Positions 19,434 to 26,487 of a stretch of 64,000 nucleotides of DNA are shown piece after piece (positions within the stretch are counted from its first letter, which is position 1; each line of letters begins with the position of its first letter). Under the pieces are notes generated by a model, which saw nothing but the letters and a program-made list of their open reading frames with translations, was not told where the DNA came from and did no database searches. This stretch comes from Methanomassiliicoccales archaeon (GTDB lineage: Archaea > Thermoplasmatota > Thermoplasmata > Methanomassiliicoccales > UBA472), in contig JAPKYJ010000024.1 in assembly GCA_026394375.1 (NCBI GenBank), positions 35,259 through 99,258 on the forward strand, written 5' to 3'. The translations under genes and the position numbers were made by a program.

Positions 19434-19442
19434 TTATATATA
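19434..19442 (+). promoter_or_regulatory. TATA-like box upstream of the ABC operon
   Basis: TTATATATA lies in an otherwise GC-rich spacer about 70 nt upstream of ATG 19512. Confidence 0.3.
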
Positions 19443-19511
19443 GCAACAAACCTCTATTCTGGACCAGTTTTCCCTACCGTTTGAGTGTGGGAGAAGAAAG
19501 GAGGAAAGCAA

Positions 19512-21389
19512 ATGGAAGGCAGTTCAAACGCTGGTGCTAAGCCTGCCCGCAGCGGAAGGACGATGATTATCGCCGCCGTTATCGTGATAATCCTCATCGC
19601 CGCCGCAGCAGCAGTGATGCTTACCCAGTCGAGTACCACCGAAAAGAAGCCCAACAACTGGTTGGACAGGGGCTTCAGCTTGGAAATCTATTACAACAGT
19701 GGCAACACTGCAAGACAGACCGGATGTCAACTGATGAAGACGAACCTAGAGAGCCTCAACCCCGGGAAGATCCACATCACGGTCACCGGCCTTGAATGGT
19801 CCCAATACCTAGCGTTGCAGAGGTCAGGCGCCATGCCGCTCTTCTTCCTAGGATGGGCGCCTGACTACGCGGACCCGAACGACTACACTGTGCCGTTCTT
19901 ACTCTCCCAGGGTACGTACCTGCGCAGCCTTGGCTACTCGAGCCCATTCCTGGACTCCATGGTGAGGCAGAGCGCGACCGAACTCAACGAGACGGTGCGT
20001 TCAAACCAGCTGCACGAGATAGCCCTGGCGGTGCAGAAGGAATGCCTGTACGTCTGGATGGCTCAGGGTGCGAACCTGTACGCGGGCAACAAGTGGATCA
20101 CCGGCTTTGAGTTCAACCCAATGTACTCCAACCTGTACTACTACCTGCTCAACAAGACCTCTAGCATACCCGCTAACCCGATCGACACCTTCACCTTTGG
20201 TACGATCGCAGGCAACCCCGACTACCTCGACCCGGCTCAGGACTACGAGACGGCGGGCGGCGAGGTACTCCAGAACGTGTTCGAGACCCTGGTGTTCTAC
20301 AACGGGTCCCACGCTTCGGAGTTCATCCCAATGCTCGCCACTGAAATACCAACGGTGGCGAATGGGGGCATCAGCGCAGACGGCCTGCACTACACGTTCC
20401 ACATCCGGGACGGCGTGAAGTTCCACGACGGCAGCGACCTCATCGCGCAGGACGTGAAGTTCAGCTTCGAAAGGGAGCTGCGCCTGAACGACGGTGCCGG
20501 GCCGGCTTGGATCCTCGGTGAAGTGATGATTCCGGACTACTACGACTACGGCTCAGCGATCTTCGACAGCAGCGGCACTATGACAGGCGGAATCAGCGAC
20601 CAGTCGATCTTCGACAACGCCATGTGGGTCATGGACGACCACACCATCATGATCAACCTGACGGTCAACGACCCGGCGTTTGTCTCCAGGCTGGCGTTCA
20701 ACTCGGCCTCTGTCCTTTCGCTGAACAACACGAAGGCGCACTCGTCGGACCTGCCCTTCTCGGAAGACGCGTTCGACTGGGTCAACACCAACCCGATCGG
20801 CACTGGTGCCTACAAGTTCTTGGAGTTCATATCGAACGATCACGTGGCCATGGACCGCTGGGACGGATACTGGCGCGCGCCTGCTAAGATCAAGAACGTT
20901 CTGGTCCTGCAGGTACCGACCGACAACGCGAGGGCCAGTGGCCTGATCGCGGGCACATTGGACGCGGCGATCATCCCAAGGGCGATCCAGGAGACACTGT
21001 ACAGCCACACTAATATAGAACTGATTAACAGTTCGACGTTCAACGTGAACTTCTTGGGTCTGAACCAGAACATCAACACAACTGGACTCAACAAGGAGCT
21101 GAACAACATCCCGGCTGACTTCTTCCGCGACCTGACCGTCAGGAAGGCGTTCGCGTATGCGTTCGACTTCGACACCTACAACGACCAGGTGATGAAGGGC
21201 ATGGCAATCCAACCGAACGGTGTGGTGCCGAAGGGCATGTTTGGCTACTTCGACGACGTCCCCGCGTACGAGTTCGACCTCGTGAAAGCGGCGGCGATGT
21301 TGAAGGGCACGAAGATTCCGACAGATAGTCAGTTCGAGATCTCGATTCTCGCTGAGCTTATCGCCAGGGACCAAACGCTATCAATTTGA
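19512..21389 (+). CDS. ABC transporter substrate-binding protein, family 5 (peptide/nickel), circularly permuted
   Basis: ATG 19512 is preceded by GGAGG. The protein has an N-terminal TM anchor. The DppA C-lobe-like segment (GFSLEIYY...FLGWAPDYADPNDY...) comes first, and the DppA N-terminal-like segment (TFTFGTIAGNPDYLDPAQDY...YTFHIRDGVKFHDG...) comes second. Confidence 0.8.
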   Translation: MEGSSNAGAKPARSGRTMIIAAVIVIILIAAAAAVMLTQSSTTEKKPNNWLDRGFSLEIYYNSGNTARQTGCQLMKTNLESLNPGKIHITVTGLEWSQYLALQRSGAMPLFFLGWAPDYADPNDYTVPFLLSQGTYLRSLGYSSPFLDSMVRQSATELNETVRSNQLHEIALAVQKECLYVWMAQGANLYAGNKWITGFEFNPMYSNLYYYLLNKTSSIPANPIDTFTFGTIAGNPDYLDPAQDYETAGGEVLQNVFETLVFYNGSHASEFIPMLATEIPTVANGGISADGLHYTFHIRDGVKFHDGSDLIAQDVKFSFERELRLNDGAGPAWILGEVMIPDYYDYGSAIFDSSGTMTGGISDQSIFDNAMWVMDDHTIMINLTVNDPAFVSRLAFNSASVLSLNNTKAHSSDLPFSEDAFDWVNTNPIGTGAYKFLEFISNDHVAMDRWDGYWRAPAKIKNVLVLQVPTDNARASGLIAGTLDAAIIPRAIQETLYSHTNIELINSSTFNVNFLGLNQNINTTGLNKELNNIPADFFRDLTVRKAFAYAFDFDTYNDQVMKGMAIQPNGVVPKGMFGYFDDVPAYEFDLVKAAAMLKGTKIPTDSQFEISILAELIARDQTLSI

Positions 21390-21421
21390 GAGGGCTTCTG
21401 GCCCTCATATCTCATTTTTTT
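21389..21421 (+). terminator. hairpin plus T8 tract after the SBP gene
   Basis: GAGGGC (21389-21394) pairs with GCCCTC (21400-21405). A T8 run follows at 21414-21421. Confidence 0.4.
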
Positions 21422-21877
21422 CTTGCCTCTCGCTTGCTCAACCCATCCGTCCGGGTTCCGCCGATTCCAACCGATGCGAAAGCCTAATTCTAGCCGATTA
21501 TTCCGTTCCTTTAGCGTTCCTCGGATCACAGACCATTTCCGGCGGACTGGCACTGACCACTGAAAGCGGACTACGCCGTGCATTCAGTGGCCGCTCGACG
21601 CCTGCGTGGAAAGGCGAGGCAAAGCCCGAGCCACTGTGATGTCGGTTTCGGCTTCGAGAGCCCGGCTCAACGTATGCAGGGCGGAGCCGCTCGCGGCAAC
21701 GATTCTTCCGTGTGGCGCGCCCGCTGAACGCACATTGTTTAAATAGCGGCGCCGTGTTCAGAAACAGTAAGTCAGGCAGGGTTTGGCTATGGTTTATCTA
21801 GCGGCATCGCGTTCAAGAAATTGCCCTGCATTATCGAAGCGCGATAGGAGTGGGCTCTTCGGAAGGGGGATCTGTAA

Positions 21878-22900
21878 ATGAGGATGTACCAGTTTGTGAT
21901 CAGAAGGCTTTTCCTACTCATTCCGGTGCTGATTGGTGTTTCGATCATCGTTTTCGCGTTGACAAGATTCACTGGCGATCCCGGCGCCGCCTACATCAAC
22001 CCGAAGATGTCAGAGAGCCAGATACAACAGGTCTACGCGAAATACCACTTCGACCAGTCGGCGATAAACCAATATTTTTACTGGCTCAATGGCCTGTTCC
22101 AGGGTGACTGGGGATGGTCCACTTCTGCGGATGAGCCGGTCACCAAGGCGATCGGGGAGAAATTTGCGGCAACATTTGAACTCGCGGCGGTGAGCATGGT
22201 CATCGCGATCGTCGTCGGGATCGCGCTGGGCACCACCGCGGCCGTCAAGAGGAACAAGCCGTTCGATCACGTGACGAGGGTGGTTTCCCTTATCGGCGTT
22301 TCGCTCCCGATATTCGTTCTCGGACTCCTCCTGCTTTACGTGTTCAGTTTCAACCTCGGATGGTTCCCGGACGGCGGAAGGGTCAGCAACACATACATAT
22401 TCGAGGCCGGAGGGGTACCTCGCATGACCGGTTTCGTGCTGATAGACTCGCTCCTGGTCGGCAATTACGGGCTGTTCTCGAACGCGGTATGGCACATGGT
22501 CCTGCCGGCGATAGCGCTGGCATTCGCGTCAATCGCGATCATTACAAGAATGATGAGGAACAGCATGCTCGAGGTGCTTGGCCTGGATTTCGTGAGGACG
22601 GCTAGGGCGAAGGGCGTGCCGGAGTCGGCCGTGATCCGGCGGCATGCCAGGAAGAACGCGCTCATTCCCACTACGACCGTGATCGGGTTGGTGTTCGGAG
22701 GAATGCTAGGGGGAGCGGTCCTCACCGAGAGCATTTTCAGATGGAACGGATTGGGCAGGTGGTCGGCTCAGGCTGTCATGGGGCAGGACATCGCTTCCAT
22801 CATGGGATTCGTGCTGCTCACGGCCATCATCTACGTGATCGTCAACCTAATTGTAGACGTCCTTTACGCGTACCTGGACCCGAGGGTCCGATTGGAGTAA
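21878..22900 (+). CDS. ABC transporter permease (OppB/DppB type)
   Basis: 340 aa. N-terminus MYQFVIRRLFLLIPVLIGVSIIVFAL and an EAA-like loop (ARAKGVPESAVIRRHARKNA). Confidence 0.9.
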   Translation: MRMYQFVIRRLFLLIPVLIGVSIIVFALTRFTGDPGAAYINPKMSESQIQQVYAKYHFDQSAINQYFYWLNGLFQGDWGWSTSADEPVTKAIGEKFAATFELAAVSMVIAIVVGIALGTTAAVKRNKPFDHVTRVVSLIGVSLPIFVLGLLLLYVFSFNLGWFPDGGRVSNTYIFEAGGVPRMTGFVLIDSLLVGNYGLFSNAVWHMVLPAIALAFASIAIITRMMRNSMLEVLGLDFVRTARAKGVPESAVIRRHARKNALIPTTTVIGLVFGGMLGGAVLTESIFRWNGLGRWSAQAVMGQDIASIMGFVLLTAIIYVIVNLIVDVLYAYLDPRVRLE

Positions 22901-22905
22901 TCTAG

Positions 22906-23871
22906 ATGGCGGGAGTACCTATACAGAGCCAGAAGAGCTTCGCCGACTCGCTGATGGCGGAGCTGAGGCCCAGGTTGAGGGAGGCGCGCAAGTCCTGGGA
23001 CCTGATCCGGACCAACTATACCGCAATGGCCGGTCTCTTCATGGTCGTGTTCATGGTCGCCGTGGCCCTGCTCGCCCCCGTTTTGGCGCCGCCCACGCCC
23101 TTCACCGACCCGCTCGAGATCCCCCGCGACTGGAGGTTTGCCAACCCCATCCCCCCCGGAGCTGAGGGGCACGTATTCGGGACCGGCACCAACGGCCTCG
23201 ACATGTTCTACGGCGTCATCTGGGGGGCGCGTACTACTCTAGTAGCATCGCTGTTCGTGGTGCTCACGTCGGCGATCATCGGGTTGGCGATTGGGGCCGT
23301 CGCAGGCTTCTACGGCGGCTGGATCGACGAGGCCTTGATGAGAATAACCGATGTCTTCCTTTCCCTACCAGCGCTGATCCTTGCCATGGCCATCACTTCG
23401 GTGCTTACCCGGAGCCTCAACAATATCATGCTCGCCCTCATCATCGTCTGGTGGCCCGGCTACGCGAGGCTGATGCGGGGGCAAGTGCTCATCATACGAG
23501 AGAGCATCTACGTGGAGGCGGCGCGCTCCATCGGAGCGCGGACGAGCCGCATCCTGTTCCGACACATTGTCCCTAACTCCCTCTCGCCCTTGGTGGTCAA
23601 CGTGACCCTAGACTTGGGAGCGGTGGCCCTGACCATGGCCGGGTTGTCCTTCATCGGGTTCGGCGTGCCCTCGGGCTTCGCGGAATGGGGCCGCATGGTT
23701 TCGGACGGCCAACTGTGGATGCCTCCGATTATGGTAATTTACAATGGCGCCGAGTACAACGCCTGGTGGACCTGGGCGATACCCGGGCTGTTCATATTGA
23801 TATTCACGATGGGCTTCTCCCTGCTTGGGGATGGCCTGAGGGACATTCTCGACCCAAGGACCAGAAGGTGA
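22906..23871 (+). CDS. ABC transporter permease (OppC/DppC type)
   Basis: 321 aa, multi-TM. Contains the EAARSIGARTSRILFRHIVPN loop. Confidence 0.9.
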   Translation: MAGVPIQSQKSFADSLMAELRPRLREARKSWDLIRTNYTAMAGLFMVVFMVAVALLAPVLAPPTPFTDPLEIPRDWRFANPIPPGAEGHVFGTGTNGLDMFYGVIWGARTTLVASLFVVLTSAIIGLAIGAVAGFYGGWIDEALMRITDVFLSLPALILAMAITSVLTRSLNNIMLALIIVWWPGYARLMRGQVLIIRESIYVEAARSIGARTSRILFRHIVPNSLSPLVVNVTLDLGAVALTMAGLSFIGFGVPSGFAEWGRMVSDGQLWMPPIMVIYNGAEYNAWWTWAIPGLFILIFTMGFSLLGDGLRDILDPRTRR

Positions 23872-23878
23872 TGCACTG

Positions 23879-25390
23879 ATGAACGAAGAGAAGATACTGG
23901 AGATCCGGGACCTTTACGTGAATTTCTACACCAAATCGGGTGTCGTCAAGGCTCTGGACGGAATCAGTTTCAGCATCGCCAAAGGGGAGACGTTCGGCCT
24001 GGTGGGCGAGAGCGGGTGCGGCAAGACCGTCACCGCCAACTGCGTGCTCCGCCTCATCGCCGAGCCGCCAGGTAAAATGGAGAGCGGCAGCATCATCTTC
24101 TCTCCGGACCTAAAGGGGATCGAGACCAGGATCGCCACCCTGGAGGTGGAGAAGATCGAGGACGACCACGAGCTGAGCTACCTTCGCAAGCGGGTGGAGG
24201 TGCTCAGGGAACAGAGGGCGAAGGAGGACAGCGTCAAGGCCAAGATCGCCGACCTGGAGAAGGCGGGAGGCTCGGCCGAAGATCTGGCGAAAGCAAAGGA
24301 GGAGCTCCTGGCCCTGGAGTCCGAGAACGACATCCTGAAATTCGACCGCGCCCACCTTCAGAAGCTACGGGGGAAGTCGATCTCCATGATATTCCAGGAG
24401 CCAATGAGCGCTCTCAACCCGGTCTTCACCGCCGCTGACCAGATATCCGAGGTGCTGCTACTGCACGAACGTTCAGACCTCGCCAAGGCGGTCATCAGGG
24501 AGATGGATCGGCGGGTGAAGGAGATCGATTCCTATCATCATAGGGTGAGCCGGGAGAAGACGGTGAAGGGGGAATTCAAGTGCAGCAACTGCGGCGCCCT
24601 CATGGCCGAGGAGGTCGATTGCTGCCCACAGTGCGCCGGCAGCTTTAGCAGCCAGCCGTTGCGGGCCCTTGAGAAGTGGCGTCTGAAGTTCAACCGCCGG
24701 TACTATGTGCTGATGGCGAAGAACCCCGATTCCCGCCGGCTCCGGTACGCGGCCAAAATACCGATCTTGCGTCGCTACATGCACTTCGCCAAGGAGGAGG
24801 CGGGCGCCCGGGCCGAGCGCATGCTCCGGCTGGTGCGCATCCCCGATCCGAGGAACGTGATGAAGTCCTATCCTCACGAGCTGTCGGGAGGGATGCAGCA
24901 GAGGGTCATGATCGCAATGGCCCTAGCCTGTCGCCCGAAACTGCTGATCGCGGACGAGCCCACCACCGCGCTGGACGTCACCGTCCAAGCGCAGATACTC
25001 AAGCTCATGCGGGACCTCCAGTTGGAGACCGGCACCTCGATCATGCTCATCACTCACAACTTGGGGGTGGTGGCGGAGACCTGCGACCGGGTCGGCGTGA
25101 TGTACGCGGGCACCATGGCCGAGATCGCCTCCACTATGGACATCTTCAAGGATCCCTTGCACCCCTACACTCAGGGCCTGATGCATCTCATTCCCAAAAT
25201 CAACGTCGATATCGAGCGGCTGGAGACCATCGAGGGCGTGGTGCCTAATCTAATGGAGCCCCCTCCAGGATGCCGCTTCCATCCCCGCTGTTCATACGCG
25301 ATGGAGGCGTGCAAGCGCATCAAGCCGATAATGCGCGAGGTCCGACCCGGCCACTTCGCCGCCTGTCATCTGTTCGAGGGGGCGAAATGA
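23879..25390 (+). CDS. ABC transporter ATP-binding protein (OppD/DppD type) with two large insertions
   Basis: 503 aa. Walker A GESGCGKT, signature LSGGMQQR, Walker [13 protein letters not shown], and a C-terminal oligopeptide-type tail (CRFHPRC). It also has a coiled-coil insert of about 70 aa and a further insert of about 100 aa that contains CSNCG..CCPQC. Confidence 0.9.
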
Positions 25391-26487
25391 TGGAGCAGCA
25401 GCAGGTGCTGATCGAGGCCAGGCAGCTGAAGAAGCATTTCCCCATCCGCTCCGGGCTGATCCGTAGGAGCGTGGGGGCGGTACGTGCCATCGACGGCATC
25501 GATATCGCGCTCCACAAGGGCGAGACCTTGGGGCTGGTCGGAGAGTCCGGTTGCGGCAAGACCACCACCGGCCGCTGCCTCCTACAGCTCACCCCGCCCA
25601 CGGACGGGAACGTCTACTACAAGATGCCGGTCGAGGTCCGGCAGGAGATGCTCAAGCTCGAGGCGGAGGAGGTAGAACTGGTAAGCAAGAATCCCACCGA
25701 GAAGAAGAAGCTCCGCCCCACCATCGACCGGCTGGAGCAGATCCGAGACCAGTACGCTCTGAACCGCAAGAAGGGCGAGGCCATGCGCGCCATTCGCCGG
25801 GAGATGCAGGTGGTGTTCCAGGACCCCTATTCCTCCCTGAACCCCAGGATGCTCATCAAGGATGTCATCGCCGAACCCCTCCTGGTGCACGGCGTGGCGC
25901 GGCGCGGCGAAACGCTGGCGCGGGTGGATGCCCTCCTGAAAAGGGTCGGCCTCGACTCCGACCATCTGTACCGCTATCCACACGAGTTCAGCGGCGGGCA
26001 GAGACAGAGGATCGGGGTGGCCCGGGCCCTGGCGCTCAACCCGGGCGTGGTGGTGCTGGACGAGCCCACCTCGGCGCTGGACGTGTCGGTGCAGGCTCAG
26101 ATACTGAACATGCTCAACGATCTGCAATCAGAGTTCAACCTGACCTATCTATTCATATCGCACGACCTGAGCACCATCCGCTACATGTGCGACCGCATCG
26201 GGGTCATGTACCTTGGCAAGGTCGTGGAGATGGCGAGCAAGCAGGACCTGTTCTCCAAGCCGCTGCATCCCTACACGGAGGCGCTGCTTTCCGCGATCCC
26301 GATCCCCGACCCGACGATGAAGCGGCACCCGATTCTGCTCAGTGGGGATGTGCCATCGCCGGCGAAGCCGCCCCCGGGATGCCGGTTCCACACCCGGTGC
26401 CGCTACCGGGAAGCGATATGCGAGAAAGTCGAACCGCCGCTGGTCGACAAGGGCAACGGCCATATGGCCGCTTGCCACTTCCGCTGA
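25387..26487 (+). CDS. ABC transporter ATP-binding protein (OppF/DppF type)
   Basis: An ATG at 25387 overlaps the oppD-like stop (ATGA). Walker [10 protein letters not shown], signature FSGGQRQR, Walker B VVLDEPTSALD, and a CRFHTRC tail. Confidence 0.9.
   Translation: MMEQQQVLIEARQLKKHFPIRSGLIRRSVGAVRAIDGIDIALHKGETLGLVGESGCGKTTTGRCLLQLTPPTDGNVYYKMPVEVRQEMLKLEAEEVELVSKNPTEKKKLRPTIDRLEQIRDQYALNRKKGEAMRAIRREMQVVFQDPYSSLNPRMLIKDVIAEPLLVHGVARRGETLARVDALLKRVGLDSDHLYRYPHEFSGGQRQRIGVARALALNPGVVVLDEPTSALDVSVQAQILNMLNDLQSEFNLTYLFISHDLSTIRYMCDRIGVMYLGKVVEMASKQDLFSKPLHPYTEALLSAIPIPDPTMKRHPILLSGDVPSPAKPPPGCRFHTRCRYREAICEKVEPPLVDKGNGHMAACHFR

What the first reader, a model, noticed from the sequence alone, without database searches (positions are those of the whole stretch)
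19512..21877. Circularly permuted family-5 substrate-binding protein, with a possible decayed remnant of the original 3' end in the long spacer
After an N-terminal TM anchor, residues about 63-224 of the ORF-track protein (nt about 19671-20156) align by eye with the C-terminal lobe segment of DppA/OppA-type SBPs. The matching segment is GFSLEIYYNSGN...LEWSQYL...FFLGWAPDYADPNDY...SPFLD...YAGNKWITGFEFNP. The rest of the protein (nt about 20184-21386) matches the normal N-terminal and central parts. That stretch is TFTFGTIAGNPDYLDPAQDYETAGGEVLQNVFETLV...YTFHIRDGVKFHDG...DLVKAAAMLKG. The protein then stops just after a FEISIL strand, which duplicates the FSLEIYY strand that opens the protein. This is the pattern left by a tandem duplication trimmed at both ends, and it produces a circular permutant. 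The unusually long 490-bp spacer before the permease gene contains a frame reading ADYSVPLAFLGSQ (21493-21531). That resembles NDYTVPFLLSQG of the relocated lobe and may be the decaying original copy. This last point rests on only 13 residues and could be chance.
Basis: partly seen in the sequence, partly recalled or inferred. Interest (0 to 1): 0.6.

Follow-up and report, generated by a model that had tools for sequence, protein, structure and literature searches.

The report
Circularly permuted archaeal ABC-transporter binding protein
The gene encodes a membrane-anchored nutrient-binding protein of an ABC importer whose two sequence halves are swapped relative to every characterised relative; the swap is real and conserved, one of several independent swaps in this archaeal protein family, and it records how proteins get re-wired by gene duplication.

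Summary
The core observation is confirmed. ORF 19512-21389 (625 aa, Methanomassiliicoccales-type) is a family-5 (cluster C, DppA/OppA-like) substrate-binding protein. After its N-terminal membrane anchor comes the canonical C-terminal ~170 residues. The canonical N-terminal and central ~375 residues follow, then a ~27-residue tail.

It is not a misassembly. Fifty-three of the 120 best database clusters and 12 species-level genomes share the order and breakpoint. Both halves are under purifying selection (dN/dS about 0.2). The gene heads a complete Opp/Dpp-type operon.

Normal-order orthologues, 65-75% identical, occupy the same syntenic locus in sister genomes. The whole five-gene operon behaves as an exchangeable cassette.

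The wider family holds at least four breakpoint classes. It also holds tandem-fused double binding proteins, the intermediate that permutation by duplication predicts.

The 13-residue "remnant" in the 488-bp spacer is a chance match; the spacer carries a terminator-like hairpin and an internal promoter. The FEISIL/FSLEIYY strand duplication is not significant at family level.

No description of a permuted cluster C binding protein was found in the searchable literature. I rate it a new variant of a known kind.

The parts
19434..19442 (+). TATA-like box (TTATATATA) upstream of the binding-protein gene
   Evidence: Read directly from the sequence. It lies about 70 nt upstream of ATG 19512. Its role as an archaeal promoter is inferred, not tested.
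19500..19504 (+). Shine-Dalgarno-like GGAGG, 7 nt before the start codon
   Evidence: Homologues begin with MEG at the equivalent ATG.
19512..21389 (+). Gene for the circularly permuted family-5 substrate-binding protein (625 aa plus stop)
   Evidence: Against L003, dN/dS is 0.18 for the relocated segment and 0.22 for the rest.
19512..19652 (+). N-terminal cytoplasmic stub, single membrane-anchor helix (residues 17-38) and short linker (residues 1-47)
   Evidence: AlphaFold helix at 17-38. The anchor is homologous to that of normal-order orthologues, with 60% identity between P0019 and P0048.
19653..20165 (+). Segment A (residues 48-218): the canonical C-terminal part, relocated to the front. 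It corresponds to about DppA 341-507: the second part of domain III plus the last strands of domain I.
   Evidence: It contains the invariant W115, P117, D118 and D121. D118 aligns to DppA D408, the residue that binds the ligand amino group.
20166..20189 (+). Join of the old C-terminus to the old N-terminus (residues 219-226, within NKTSSIPANPIDTF)
   Evidence: The same join is present in every permutant class and in the tandem-fused double proteins.
20190..21305 (+). Segment B (residues 227-598): the canonical N-terminal and central parts. It corresponds to about DppA 1-340: domain I, domain II and the first part of domain III.
21306..21386 (+). C-terminal tail (residues 599-625, ...KIPTDSQFEISILAELIARDQTLSI), found only in the permuted form
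   Evidence: An amphipathic motif hLxEhhA(R/K)h is present in all 49 permuted relatives with a complete C-terminus. pLDDT is below 50. dN/dS is about 1 against L003. Its origin is not demonstrable.
21390..21421 (+). Hairpin GAGGGC-TTCTG-GCCCTC followed by a T7 run, directly after the stop codon
   Evidence: The stem is conserved in L001 and L003 while the loop differs. A terminator or attenuator role is inferred. The generic terminator scan did not list it, by my reading because the T run starts more than 2 nt after the stem.
21738..21877 (+). TTTAAATA box (21738-21745) and conserved leader upstream of the permease genes
   Evidence: This is the best-conserved part of the spacer, 84-85% identical to L003. 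The rest of the spacer is 42-75% identical (68-75% for most of it), and third codon positions of the gene are 75% identical.
21878..22900 (+). Permease 1 (BPD_transp_1 with BPD_transp_1_N)
22906..23871 (+). Permease 2 (BPD_transp_1 with OppC_N)
23879..25390 (+). ATPase 1 (ABC_tran split by an insertion, plus oligo_HPY)
25390..26487 (+). ATPase 2 (ABC_tran plus oligo_HPY)

Best explanation
WHAT IT IS (shown). The gene encodes the substrate-binding subunit of an Opp/Dpp-type ABC importer in a Methanomassiliicoccales archaeon. The operon holds the binding protein, two permeases and two ATPases with the oligo_HPY C-terminal region.

The mature domain has the three-domain cluster C fold, but the chain is circularly permuted. 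The chain enters in the middle of domain III, at the strand that in DppA starts near residue 341. It runs to the old C-terminus in domain I. It then crosses an 8-20-residue join to the old N-terminus and ends after the helix that in DppA precedes residue 341.

HOW IT WORKS (inferred). It binds and delivers ligand as any Venus-flytrap binding protein does. Both halves are under purifying selection. The Asp equivalent to the amino-group-binding Asp of DppA (D118) is invariant. The ligand itself is unknown. The one mechanical difference is the attachment point of the short membrane tether, which moves from domain I to domain III.

ORIGIN (inferred; about 0.6 for duplication-based routes). The most likely route is an in-frame duplication and fusion of the mature coding region, followed by loss of the redundant first N-part and last C-part, with the anchor retained.

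HISTORY (partly shown). In Methanomassiliicoccales the permuted-type and normal-type operons are old alternative cassettes at one chromosomal locus. They have been exchanged or sorted among close relatives. On the cassette tree the topology changed more than once.
For: PERMUTED ORDER..

FOLD.
- The AlphaFold model has pLDDT 86.2 and pTM 0.81.
- Order-dependent Foldseek aligns only about 390-400 columns to DppA/GbpA, at target-normalised TM 0.53-0.57 and E about 1e-18.
- The model of the normal-order orthologue P0048 aligns 575-580 columns at TM 0.81-0.87 and E about 1e-36.
- The secondary-structure strings of the two models are rotations of each other.

NOT AN ARTEFACT.
- The same architecture appears in independent assemblies from ENA, JGI and NCBI.
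- Fifty-three of the 120 best clusters are permuted, all at the same breakpoint.
- dN/dS is 0.18-0.22.
- The operon is complete.

SYNTENY WITH NORMAL-ORDER ORTHOLOGUES..

CASSETTE BEHAVIOUR.
- L022 (normal) against L014 (permuted): flanking genes are 76-94% identical, operon genes only 53-67%.
- L022 against L027 (both normal): flanks are 59-87% identical, operon genes 73-85%.
- The tree of upstream genes conflicts with the tree of transporter genes.

DUPLICATION ROUTE.
- Fused double or multi binding proteins exist: P0148, P0177, P0122, P0209 and P0251. P0122 has 4 cluster members and P0177 has 2.
- At least four breakpoint classes all keep the same join.
- An independent permutation in Nitrososphaeria, Bathyarchaeia and Brockarchaeota is nested within normal-order relatives of those lineages at 89-95% bootstrap.
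- Tandem permuted genes 85% identical occur at this locus in L018.
- The model follows the published description of permutation by duplication (PMC3320104).
Against: - There is no experimental evidence for binding or transport. The ligand cannot be assigned: all NCBIfam equivalog scores are far below cut-off, for example 105.8 bits against a cut-off of 650.
- No permutation-aware structural superposition could be run, because model coordinates are not exposed.
- No fused or partly trimmed intermediate was found within Methanomassiliicoccales. The fused proteins are 28-35% identical to the query, and the one that carries a name is from Thorarchaeota.
- No decayed remnant exists at any of 35 loci.
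- The anchor is retained, so at least three separate DNA events are needed.
- The number and direction of topology switches inside Methanomassiliicoccales is unresolved. Permuted proteins are not a clade in neighbour-joining trees (0 of 100 bootstraps). L017 (permuted) lies outside the group of permuted group 3 plus normal group 1 at 100% on the transporter tree. Yet all permuted forms share one breakpoint and a similar tail.
- The trees are distance-based only.
Confidence: 0.82

Rival explanations
1. Assembly artefact: the permuted order results from a chimeric join or a collapsed tandem repeat in this one assembly.
For: Nothing positive. It was raised only because the window is a single assembled sequence.
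Against: - The same order and breakpoints occur in 53 protein clusters from separate ENA, JGI, NCBI and Logan assemblies.
- They also occur in 12 species-representative genomes.
- Relatives are collinear over the full length down to 40-44% identity.
- Both halves are under purifying selection.
Confidence: 0.01
2. Non-functional relic: a rearranged pseudogene that is no longer a working binding protein.
For: The tail evolves at dN/dS of about 1 between close relatives. No biochemical data exist.
Against: - The ORF is intact in all relatives.
- dN/dS is about 0.2 in both halves.
- Forty-six columns are invariant across 49 sequences, including the ligand-contact Asp.
- In all loci examined except L018, which has two permuted copies, it is the only binding-protein gene of a complete, conserved five-gene operon.
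- The AlphaFold model is confident.
Confidence: 0.03
3. The permutation arose by fission and fusion, or by cut-and-paste of the ~510-bp 3' segment to a site just after the anchor, rather than by duplication and trimming.
For: - The anchor is retained in both forms. A single relocation of the 3' segment would explain this with fewer steps.
- No duplication remnant is present at any locus.
- No intermediate is known within Methanomassiliicoccales.
- Both alternatives are recognised models (PMC3320104).
Against: - No split A-only or B-only genes were seen. The short hits sit on short contigs or carry a 'partial' label, so they are probably truncated by contig ends.
- Fused tandem binding proteins exist in the family.
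- A series of permutants with different breakpoints but one identical join is what duplication and trimming predicts. Repeated cut-and-paste would not predict it.
Confidence: 0.2
4. The 488-bp spacer holds the decaying original 3' copy of the relocated segment.
For: A 12-13-residue resemblance: DYSVPLAFLGSQ in the spacer against DYTVPFLLSQ in the protein.
Against: - E=1.8 in a 488-bp search space, with a better chance hit (E=0.35) on the other strand.
- By my reading of the alignment, L003 has a 1-nt gap and a stop in that frame.
- Spacer identity to L003 (68-75% over most of its length) equals third-codon-position identity (75%), so it evolves about neutrally.
- The permutation predates a divergence to about 40% protein identity, so no neutral remnant could remain recognisable.
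- Orthologous spacers are as short as 68 bp.
- No remnant was found at any of 35 loci.
Confidence: 0.02
5. Inside Methanomassiliicoccales the permuted form arose once, and the interleaving with normal-order forms reflects reversions or recombination between co-occurring cassettes, not repeated independent origins.
For: - All permuted forms share the same breakpoint, the same join and a similar tail motif.
- Elsewhere in the family, independent events hit different breakpoints.
- Parsimony on the cassette tree favours one gain plus two reversions over four gains.
- Normal-order group 1 proteins carry a 4-12-residue C-terminal extension that resembles the start of the permuted-form join.
Against: - The gene body has no residues specific to the permuted form.
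- Deep nodes have weak support, 41-61%.
- No genome with both forms side by side was found.
Confidence: 0.5

Closest known systems
E. coli DppA, Haemophilus GbpA/HbpA and other cluster C (family 5) substrate-binding proteins (PDB 1DPP, 1DPE, 3M8U, 6OFQ, 8Z1Y)
   Same: - Same Pfam family (E=1.9e-68).
- Same three-domain fold according to Foldseek (probability 1.0).
- Same operon partners: two permeases and two ATPases with oligo_HPY.
- The Asp equivalent to the amino-group-binding DppA D408 is conserved.
   Different: - The chain order is rotated, reading about DppA 341-507 and then 1-340.
- It is held by an N-terminal membrane helix rather than being a free periplasmic protein.
- It has an extra ~27-residue C-terminal tail.
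- Identity is only 19-25%, and all ligand-specific NCBIfam models score far below cut-off.
Normal-order orthologues at the same locus, e.g. P0048 (GCA_964477865.1, locus L007)
   Same: - Same syntenic position: DUF373, MptE-like, binding protein, two permeases, two ATPases, a small ORF, DUF6015, M50 peptidase.
- Same anchor.
- 65-75% identical to the permuted P0019 and 48-51% identical to the window protein, segment by segment.
   Different: The order of the two segments differs. There is no C-terminal tail, and the protein ends a few residues after the YYYxLxK motif.
Treponema pallidum Tp0684 (TpMglB-2), the 'Cluster Bc' glucose-binding protein (PMC4990184)
   Same: - A naturally occurring circularly permuted ABC-transporter binding protein.
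- It is membrane-tethered.
- The authors likewise speculate that tethering may relate to the altered topology.
   Different: - It has a different fold class (type I / cluster B, not cluster C).
- The moved segment there shows poor sequence similarity to the canonical N-terminus, and the authors could not exclude acquisition from another gene. Here both segments are 46-75% identical to normal-order relatives, and orthologous pairs exist.
Textbook permutation-by-duplication families: saposin/swaposin and DNA methyltransferases (PMC3320104)
   Same: The family contains the canonical form, tandem-fused forms and several permutants with different breakpoints, as that model predicts.
   Different: - The fold and function are different.
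- An N-terminal anchor must be kept, so the 5' trimming has to be an in-frame internal deletion rather than a new start codon.

Membership tests
SBP_bac_5 / cluster C substrate-binding proteins (DppA, OppA, NikA type) | Significant match to the family sequence profile | tested here: met
   PF00496 at E=1.9e-68, 231.7 bits against a cut-off of 32.4. Ninety-seven PDB sequences matched at E<=1, and those listed are family-5-type binding proteins.
SBP_bac_5 / cluster C substrate-binding proteins (DppA, OppA, NikA type) | Canonical collinear order of the family's sequence segments | tested here: not met
   There are two profile stretches in rotated order, with the break at profile position about 283/284. 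Alignment to a doubled normal-order orthologue gives a single HSP. The protein is homologous to the family but is a topological variant of it.
SBP_bac_5 / cluster C substrate-binding proteins (DppA, OppA, NikA type) | Three-domain Venus-flytrap fold | tested here: inconclusive
   The AlphaFold model is confident (pLDDT 86.2, pTM 0.81). About 390-400 residues superpose on DppA/GbpA in sequence order. The remaining ~170 residues could not be superposed, because no permutation-aware tool or coordinates were available. Their secondary-structure string matches the C-terminal part of the P0048 model.
SBP_bac_5 / cluster C substrate-binding proteins (DppA, OppA, NikA type) | Encoded with Opp/Dpp-type permeases and ATPases | tested here: met
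   BPD_transp_1 (+BPD_transp_1_N), BPD_transp_1 + OppC_N, and two ABC_tran + oligo_HPY genes lie directly downstream. The arrangement is conserved in orthologous loci.
SBP_bac_5 / cluster C substrate-binding proteins (DppA, OppA, NikA type) | Binds a ligand and delivers it to the translocator | not testable with these tools
   Indirect support only: purifying selection, and an invariant D118 aligned to DppA D408.
Specific equivalogs (DppA dipeptide, Opp4A, NikA nickel, GsiB glutathione, OppA) | Score above the curated NCBIfam cut-off | tested here: not met
   The best score is Opp4A at 105.8 bits against a cut-off of 650. DppA scores 95.6 against 1005. No ligand assignment is justified.
'Cluster Bc' circularly permuted binding proteins (TpMglB-2 type) | Type I / cluster B fold with the N-lobe strands moved to the C-terminus | tested here: not met
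   The listed sequence and structure matches are family-5 / cluster C-type proteins. The similarity to TpMglB-2 is one of principle only.
Products of permutation by duplication | Existence of tandem-fused and differently trimmed relatives that share the same join | tested here: met
   Fused proteins P0148, P0177, P0122, P0209 and P0251. Rotations start at reference offsets of about 161-204, 227, 281-313 and 377-401. This holds at family level only. No intermediate was found in the window's own lineage.

The most novel reading that the evidence does not exclude
This archaeal branch of family-5 binding proteins is a hotspot of circular permutation.
- It shows at least four independent breakpoints, plus surviving fused intermediates.
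- In Methanomassiliicoccales, the permuted-type and normal-type five-gene operons persist as alternative cassettes at one locus.
- The topology may have toggled more than once at the same two soft sites.
- The toggling may be adaptive, because it moves the short membrane tether from domain I to domain III and so changes how the tethered protein docks on its permeases.
Probability: 0.3. Interest if true: 0.8.

Novelty: new variant of a known kind. Interest (0 to 1): 0.62.

Why it matters
Natural circular permutants of ABC-transporter binding proteins are very rare. The full-text searches here found only one described case, in a different fold class, and there the moved part has almost no sequence similarity left.

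This case offers more to work with:
- Orthologous permuted and normal proteins are 65-75% identical and sit in the same operon context.
- At least three further breakpoint classes occur in the family.
- The fused double proteins that the duplication model predicts are still present.

Together these make a nearly complete natural series for studying how a large three-domain protein tolerates re-wiring. They also allow a direct test of whether the tether position matters for docking on the translocator.

Two practical points follow:
- Order-dependent annotation and structure searches under-score these proteins (Foldseek E about 1e-18 against 1e-36, with half the TM-score).
- The natural breakpoints mark permissive sites that could guide engineering of cluster C binding-protein biosensors.

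Tried and rejected
- **Rfam on 21300-21950** at E<=1: no match.
- **tRNA scan:** nothing in the region.
- **Remnant in the window spacer:** tblastn of the whole protein against the spacer gave only chance-level hits.
- **Remnants elsewhere:** tblastn of 121 family proteins against 67 spacers of 35 syntenic loci found no remnants. The only hits were N-terminal PKD extensions and translated leaders.
- **Paralogues:** there is no other binding-protein copy elsewhere in the window.
- **Tail as a copy of the first strand of the relocated segment:** two profile tests were not significant. I also tried an ungapped BLOSUM comparison by hand, which was not convincing.
- **Residues specific to the permuted form in the gene body:** none found.
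- **Junction motif YLxNAT against YLKAAK as a marker of direction:** abandoned. Some normal-order proteins (P0063) carry the YLKLAK form, because the loop before the break is homologous in both forms.
- **Monophyly of permuted proteins:** not recovered in neighbour-joining trees. I could not run maximum-likelihood or topology tests.
- **AlphaFold database fold search:** the library was not available.
- **Generic terminator scan:** it did not list the hairpin after the stop codon, by my reading because the T run starts more than 2 nt after the stem.
- **Literature:** five of the seven full-text searches targeted permuted binding proteins. They returned TpMglB-2 and engineered biosensors, and nothing on family 5 or cluster C.
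- **Spacer as a structured RNA:** not pursued further, because its middle part evolves at about the neutral rate.
Full report
**NUMBERING.** Residues are counted from ATG 19512 (625 aa). Searches used the longer mechanical ORF from GTG 19485 (634 aa), so 9 is subtracted from their coordinates.

**1. What is there**

The ORF list shows one long + strand ORF, 19485-21389. Four further ORFs follow it. These are two BPD_transp_1 permeases (the second with OppC_N) and two ABC_tran ATPases with the oligo_HPY C-terminal region. Together they form a standard Opp/Dpp-type ABC importer operon.

GGAGG lies 7 nt upstream, a TTATATATA box lies about 70 nt upstream, and all homologues begin with MEG.

**2. 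The permutation is real**

- Pfam SBP_bac_5 matches at E=1.9e-68, but as two stretches. The main one stops at profile position 284 of 368.
- Against the Protein Data Bank, residues 279-610 align to E. coli DppA 47-346. Residues 52-157 align to DppA 341-450, and residues 90-209 to HbpA/GbpA 382-503.
- Against the normal-order protein P0065 from the same archaeal order, residues 227-598 match 52-422 (46% identity). Residues 48-218 match 429-598 (52%).
- Against a doubled copy of the mature normal-order orthologue P0048, residues 48-598 form one HSP of 557 columns at 48.8% identity. This is the classic test for a simple circular permutation.
- The AlphaFold model, built on 49 permuted relatives, is confident: pLDDT 86.2, pTM 0.81, with a membrane helix at 17-38.
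- Order-dependent Foldseek aligns only about 390-400 columns to DppA/GbpA, at target-normalised TM 0.53-0.57 and E about 1e-18.
- The model of P0048 aligns 575-580 columns at TM 0.81-0.87 and E about 1e-36.
- The secondary-structure strings of the two models are rotations of one another.

The resulting architecture is: anchor (1-47), segment A (48-218, about DppA 341-507), a short join (219-226), segment B (227-598, about DppA 1-340), and a tail (599-625).

From my own knowledge of the DppA and OppA structures, both canonical termini lie in domain I, and the new termini fall inside domain III.

**3. It is not an artefact or a pseudogene**

- Of the 120 best 90%-identity clusters, 53 share the permuted order with the same breakpoints, down to 40% identity. 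Sixty-six are normal order.
- They come from independent ENA, JGI, NCBI and Logan assemblies.
- Twelve species-representative genomes carry the permuted form.
- Against L003 (79% protein identity), dN/dS is 0.18 for segment A and 0.22 for segment B.
- Forty-six columns are invariant across 49 permuted proteins. They include W115, P117, D118 and D121. D118 aligns to DppA D408 (D436 in precursor numbering), which binds the amino group of the dipeptide (PMC12136057).
- No NCBIfam equivalog comes near its cut-off, so the ligand cannot be named.

**4. The two side claims fail**

*The spacer remnant.*
- The 13-residue match in the spacer has E=1.8 in a 488-bp search space, and a stronger chance match (E=0.35) lies on the other strand.
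- By my reading of the alignment, the frame is shifted and carries a stop in L003.
- None of 35 syntenic loci has a remnant.
- The spacer is 488-498 bp only in the window's close relatives. It is 285 bp in L004 and 68 bp in L005.
- For most of its length it diverges at about the neutral rate: 68-75% identity to L003, against 75% at third codon positions.
- What it does contain is a conserved hairpin (21390-21406) with a T7 run (21415-21421) directly after the stop codon. It also contains a TTTAAATA box (21738-21745), followed by the best-conserved ~135 nt up to the permease start.
- I infer a terminator or attenuator after the binding-protein gene and an internal promoter for the permease genes.
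- Rfam finds nothing there.

*The duplicated strand.*
- The pairwise alignment to DppA/HbpA does extend through FEISILAE onto the same strand that GFSLEIYY matches.
- AlphaFold gives the tail pLDDT below 50.
- Two family-level profile tests are not significant: 85 of 200 and 18 of 200 shuffles do as well as the observed score.
- The tail is nevertheless a constant feature of the permuted form. It carries an amphipathic motif hLxEhhA(R/K)h.
- Its function and origin are unknown.

**5. Orthologues with the normal order sit at the same locus**

The permuted P0019 (L008) and the normal-order P0048 (L007) are 65% identical in segment B, 75% in segment A and 60% in the anchor. P0019 is only about 49% identical to the window protein.

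Both lie in the same gene neighbourhood as the window gene. The order is: DUF373, MptE-like, binding protein, two permeases, two ATPases, a small ORF, DUF6015, M50 peptidase.

Trees and identities show that the whole five-gene operon behaves as a cassette:
- L022 (normal) and L014 (permuted) have flanking genes 76-94% identical but operon genes only 53-67% identical.
- L022 and L027 (both normal) have less similar flanks (59-87%) and more similar operons (73-85%).
- The upstream-gene tree interleaves the two forms among close relatives at 92-100% bootstrap.
- The permease/ATPase tree groups by binding-protein type within each group.

Either the cassettes are exchanged by recombination in the conserved flanks, or an ancestral pair was lost differentially.

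Even on the cassette tree the permuted type is not one clade. L017 (permuted) lies outside the group formed by permuted group 3 plus normal group 1, at 100% bootstrap (76% and 96% on the binding-protein tree).

All permuted forms share one breakpoint, one join and a similar tail. One origin with later reversions or inter-cassette recombination is therefore somewhat more likely than repeated origins. I could not settle this. The trees are distance-based, the deep nodes are weak, and the gene body has no residues specific to the permuted form.

L018 carries two tandem permuted genes that are 85% identical. Tandem duplication does happen at this locus.

**6. The family is a hotspot for permutation**

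I searched 1.84 billion cluster representatives (475 hits at E<1e-30). I then mapped the best 150 with twelve block profiles laid out in canonical order, a to l. The canonical protein reads abcdefghijkl. Several rotations appear:

| Rotation | Members |
|---|---|
| ijkl\|abcdefgh | the window type; also P0121, P0156, P0180, P0194, P0240, P0188 |
| hijkl\|abcdefg | L037, L041, P0167, P0213, P0226, P0229, P0253 |
| f(g)hijkl\|abcde | P0202, a cluster of 10 members from four sources |
| ef(g)hijkl\|ab(c)d | P0216, P0261, probably P0210 |
| defhijkl\|abc | P0227, a singleton, so tentative |

Each of the nine representatives tested gives a single HSP against a doubled normal-order reference. The HSPs start at reference offsets of about 161-204, 227, 281-313 and 377-401.

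The second rotation occurs in Nitrososphaeria, Bathyarchaeia and Brockarchaeota genomes. It is nested within normal-order proteins of those lineages at 89-95% bootstrap. L037 and the normal-order L048 are 69-72% identical segment by segment. In Pfam terms, the break is at profile position about 188 rather than 283. It is therefore an independent event.

The same search found tandem-fused proteins:
- P0148 (1346 aa) and P0177 (1372 aa) each hold two complete units after one anchor.
- P0122 (4308 aa, four cluster members) holds two units inside a giant protein.
- P0209 (2754 aa) holds about four units.
- P0251 holds one unit plus the start of a second.
- P0178 is annotated as partial and comes from a Thorarchaeota MAG.

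All rotations and all fusions use the same join of old C-terminus to old N-terminus. This is the pattern that permutation by duplication predicts (PMC3320104). The caveat is that the fused proteins are only 28-35% identical to the window protein. None was found within Methanomassiliicoccales.

**7. How it most likely works**

*Shown:* a complete importer operon, a conserved permuted binding protein with a membrane anchor, and purifying selection.

*Inferred:* it captures a ligand between its lobes and docks on the permeases like any cluster C binding protein. Because the anchor stays N-terminal, the permutation moves the attachment point of a 10-15-residue tether from domain I to domain III.

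The basal normal-order proteins at this locus carry two PKD domains between anchor and binding domain. The permutants in Nitrososphaeria and related lineages carry a CARDB domain there. The window type and its nearest normal-order relatives have only a short linker.

An effect of tether position on docking is a plausible selective factor, but it is untested. The authors of the only described precedent made the same suggestion for their tethered protein (PMC4990184).

**8. Comparison with what is known, and novelty**

The protein is homologous to family 5 / cluster C binding proteins but fails the family's collinearity. It is a topological variant, not a new fold or a new system.

The only natural permuted binding protein found in the searchable literature is Treponema pallidum TpMglB-2, in cluster B. 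Its moved segment has little sequence similarity to the canonical one. Five full-text searches for permuted binding proteins found nothing on a permuted cluster C or family-5 protein. Absence from that library does not prove that nothing has been published. Source annotations simply call these proteins ABC transporter substrate-binding proteins.

**Verdict.** The main finding is confirmed and considerably extended. The two side claims are rejected. I rate it a new variant of a known kind, of moderate to high interest for protein evolution and for transporter mechanics.

Noticed in passing
window 21390-21421: The hairpin GAGGGC-TTCTG-GCCCTC starts one base after the stop codon and is followed by a T7 run. 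The stem is conserved in L001 and L003 while the loop differs. It is probably a terminator or attenuator that uncouples binding-protein expression from permease expression.
   Followed up: partly
window 21738-21877: A TTTAAATA box and the following ~135 nt up to the permease ATG are the only part of the spacer conserved above the neutral level (84-85% identity to L003). This suggests an internal promoter with an unusually long conserved leader.
   Followed up: partly
window 23879-25390: ATPase 1 (503 aa) has an insertion of roughly 200 residues that splits its ABC_tran domain. The insertion has a coiled-coil-like stretch and a CSNCG...CCPQC zinc-ribbon-like motif. Both ATPases end in a four-Cys motif (GCRFHxRC...C...C) resembling the [4Fe-4S] domain described for E. 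coli DppD/DppF.
   Followed up: no
L018 7717-9627 and 9869-11788: Two tandem permuted binding-protein genes, 85% identical, lie at the orthologous locus of a Methanomassiliicoccaceae MAG. The first permease gene downstream gives hits in two pieces and may be disrupted.
   Followed up: partly
L007/L008, L022/L014, L023/L016, L024/L017, L026/L010 (whole loci): Closely related genomes carry either a normal-type or a permuted-type five-gene operon between the same flanking genes. Flanks are 73-98% identical and operon genes 51-77% identical. This indicates cassette replacement or differential loss at a fixed locus.
   Followed up: yes
L037 688-2694, L041 9596-11686 (also L038, L042): An independent circular permutation of the same protein family occurs in Nitrososphaeria, Brockarchaeota and Bathyarchaeia. 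Its breakpoint differs (Pfam profile position about 188), and a CARDB domain sits between the anchor and the binding domain.
   Followed up: yes
P0148, P0177 (L088 1672-5790), P0122, P0209, P0251: Single polypeptides contain two to about four complete family-5 binding units in tandem. P0177 lies next to three GH116 glycosidase genes, so some members of this subfamily probably bind sugars rather than peptides.
   Followed up: partly
L025, L028, L030, L032-L036, L039, L044, L052, L056 (upstream part of the binding-protein genes): The basal normal-order proteins at this locus carry about 200-250 extra residues, with PKD domains, between the membrane anchor and the binding domain. The permuted proteins and their nearest normal-order relatives have lost them.
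   Followed up: no
L026 11636-12576: A 942-bp gap lies between the binding-protein gene and the first permease gene in this normal-order locus. It has no binding-protein remnant, and its content was not examined.
   Followed up: no
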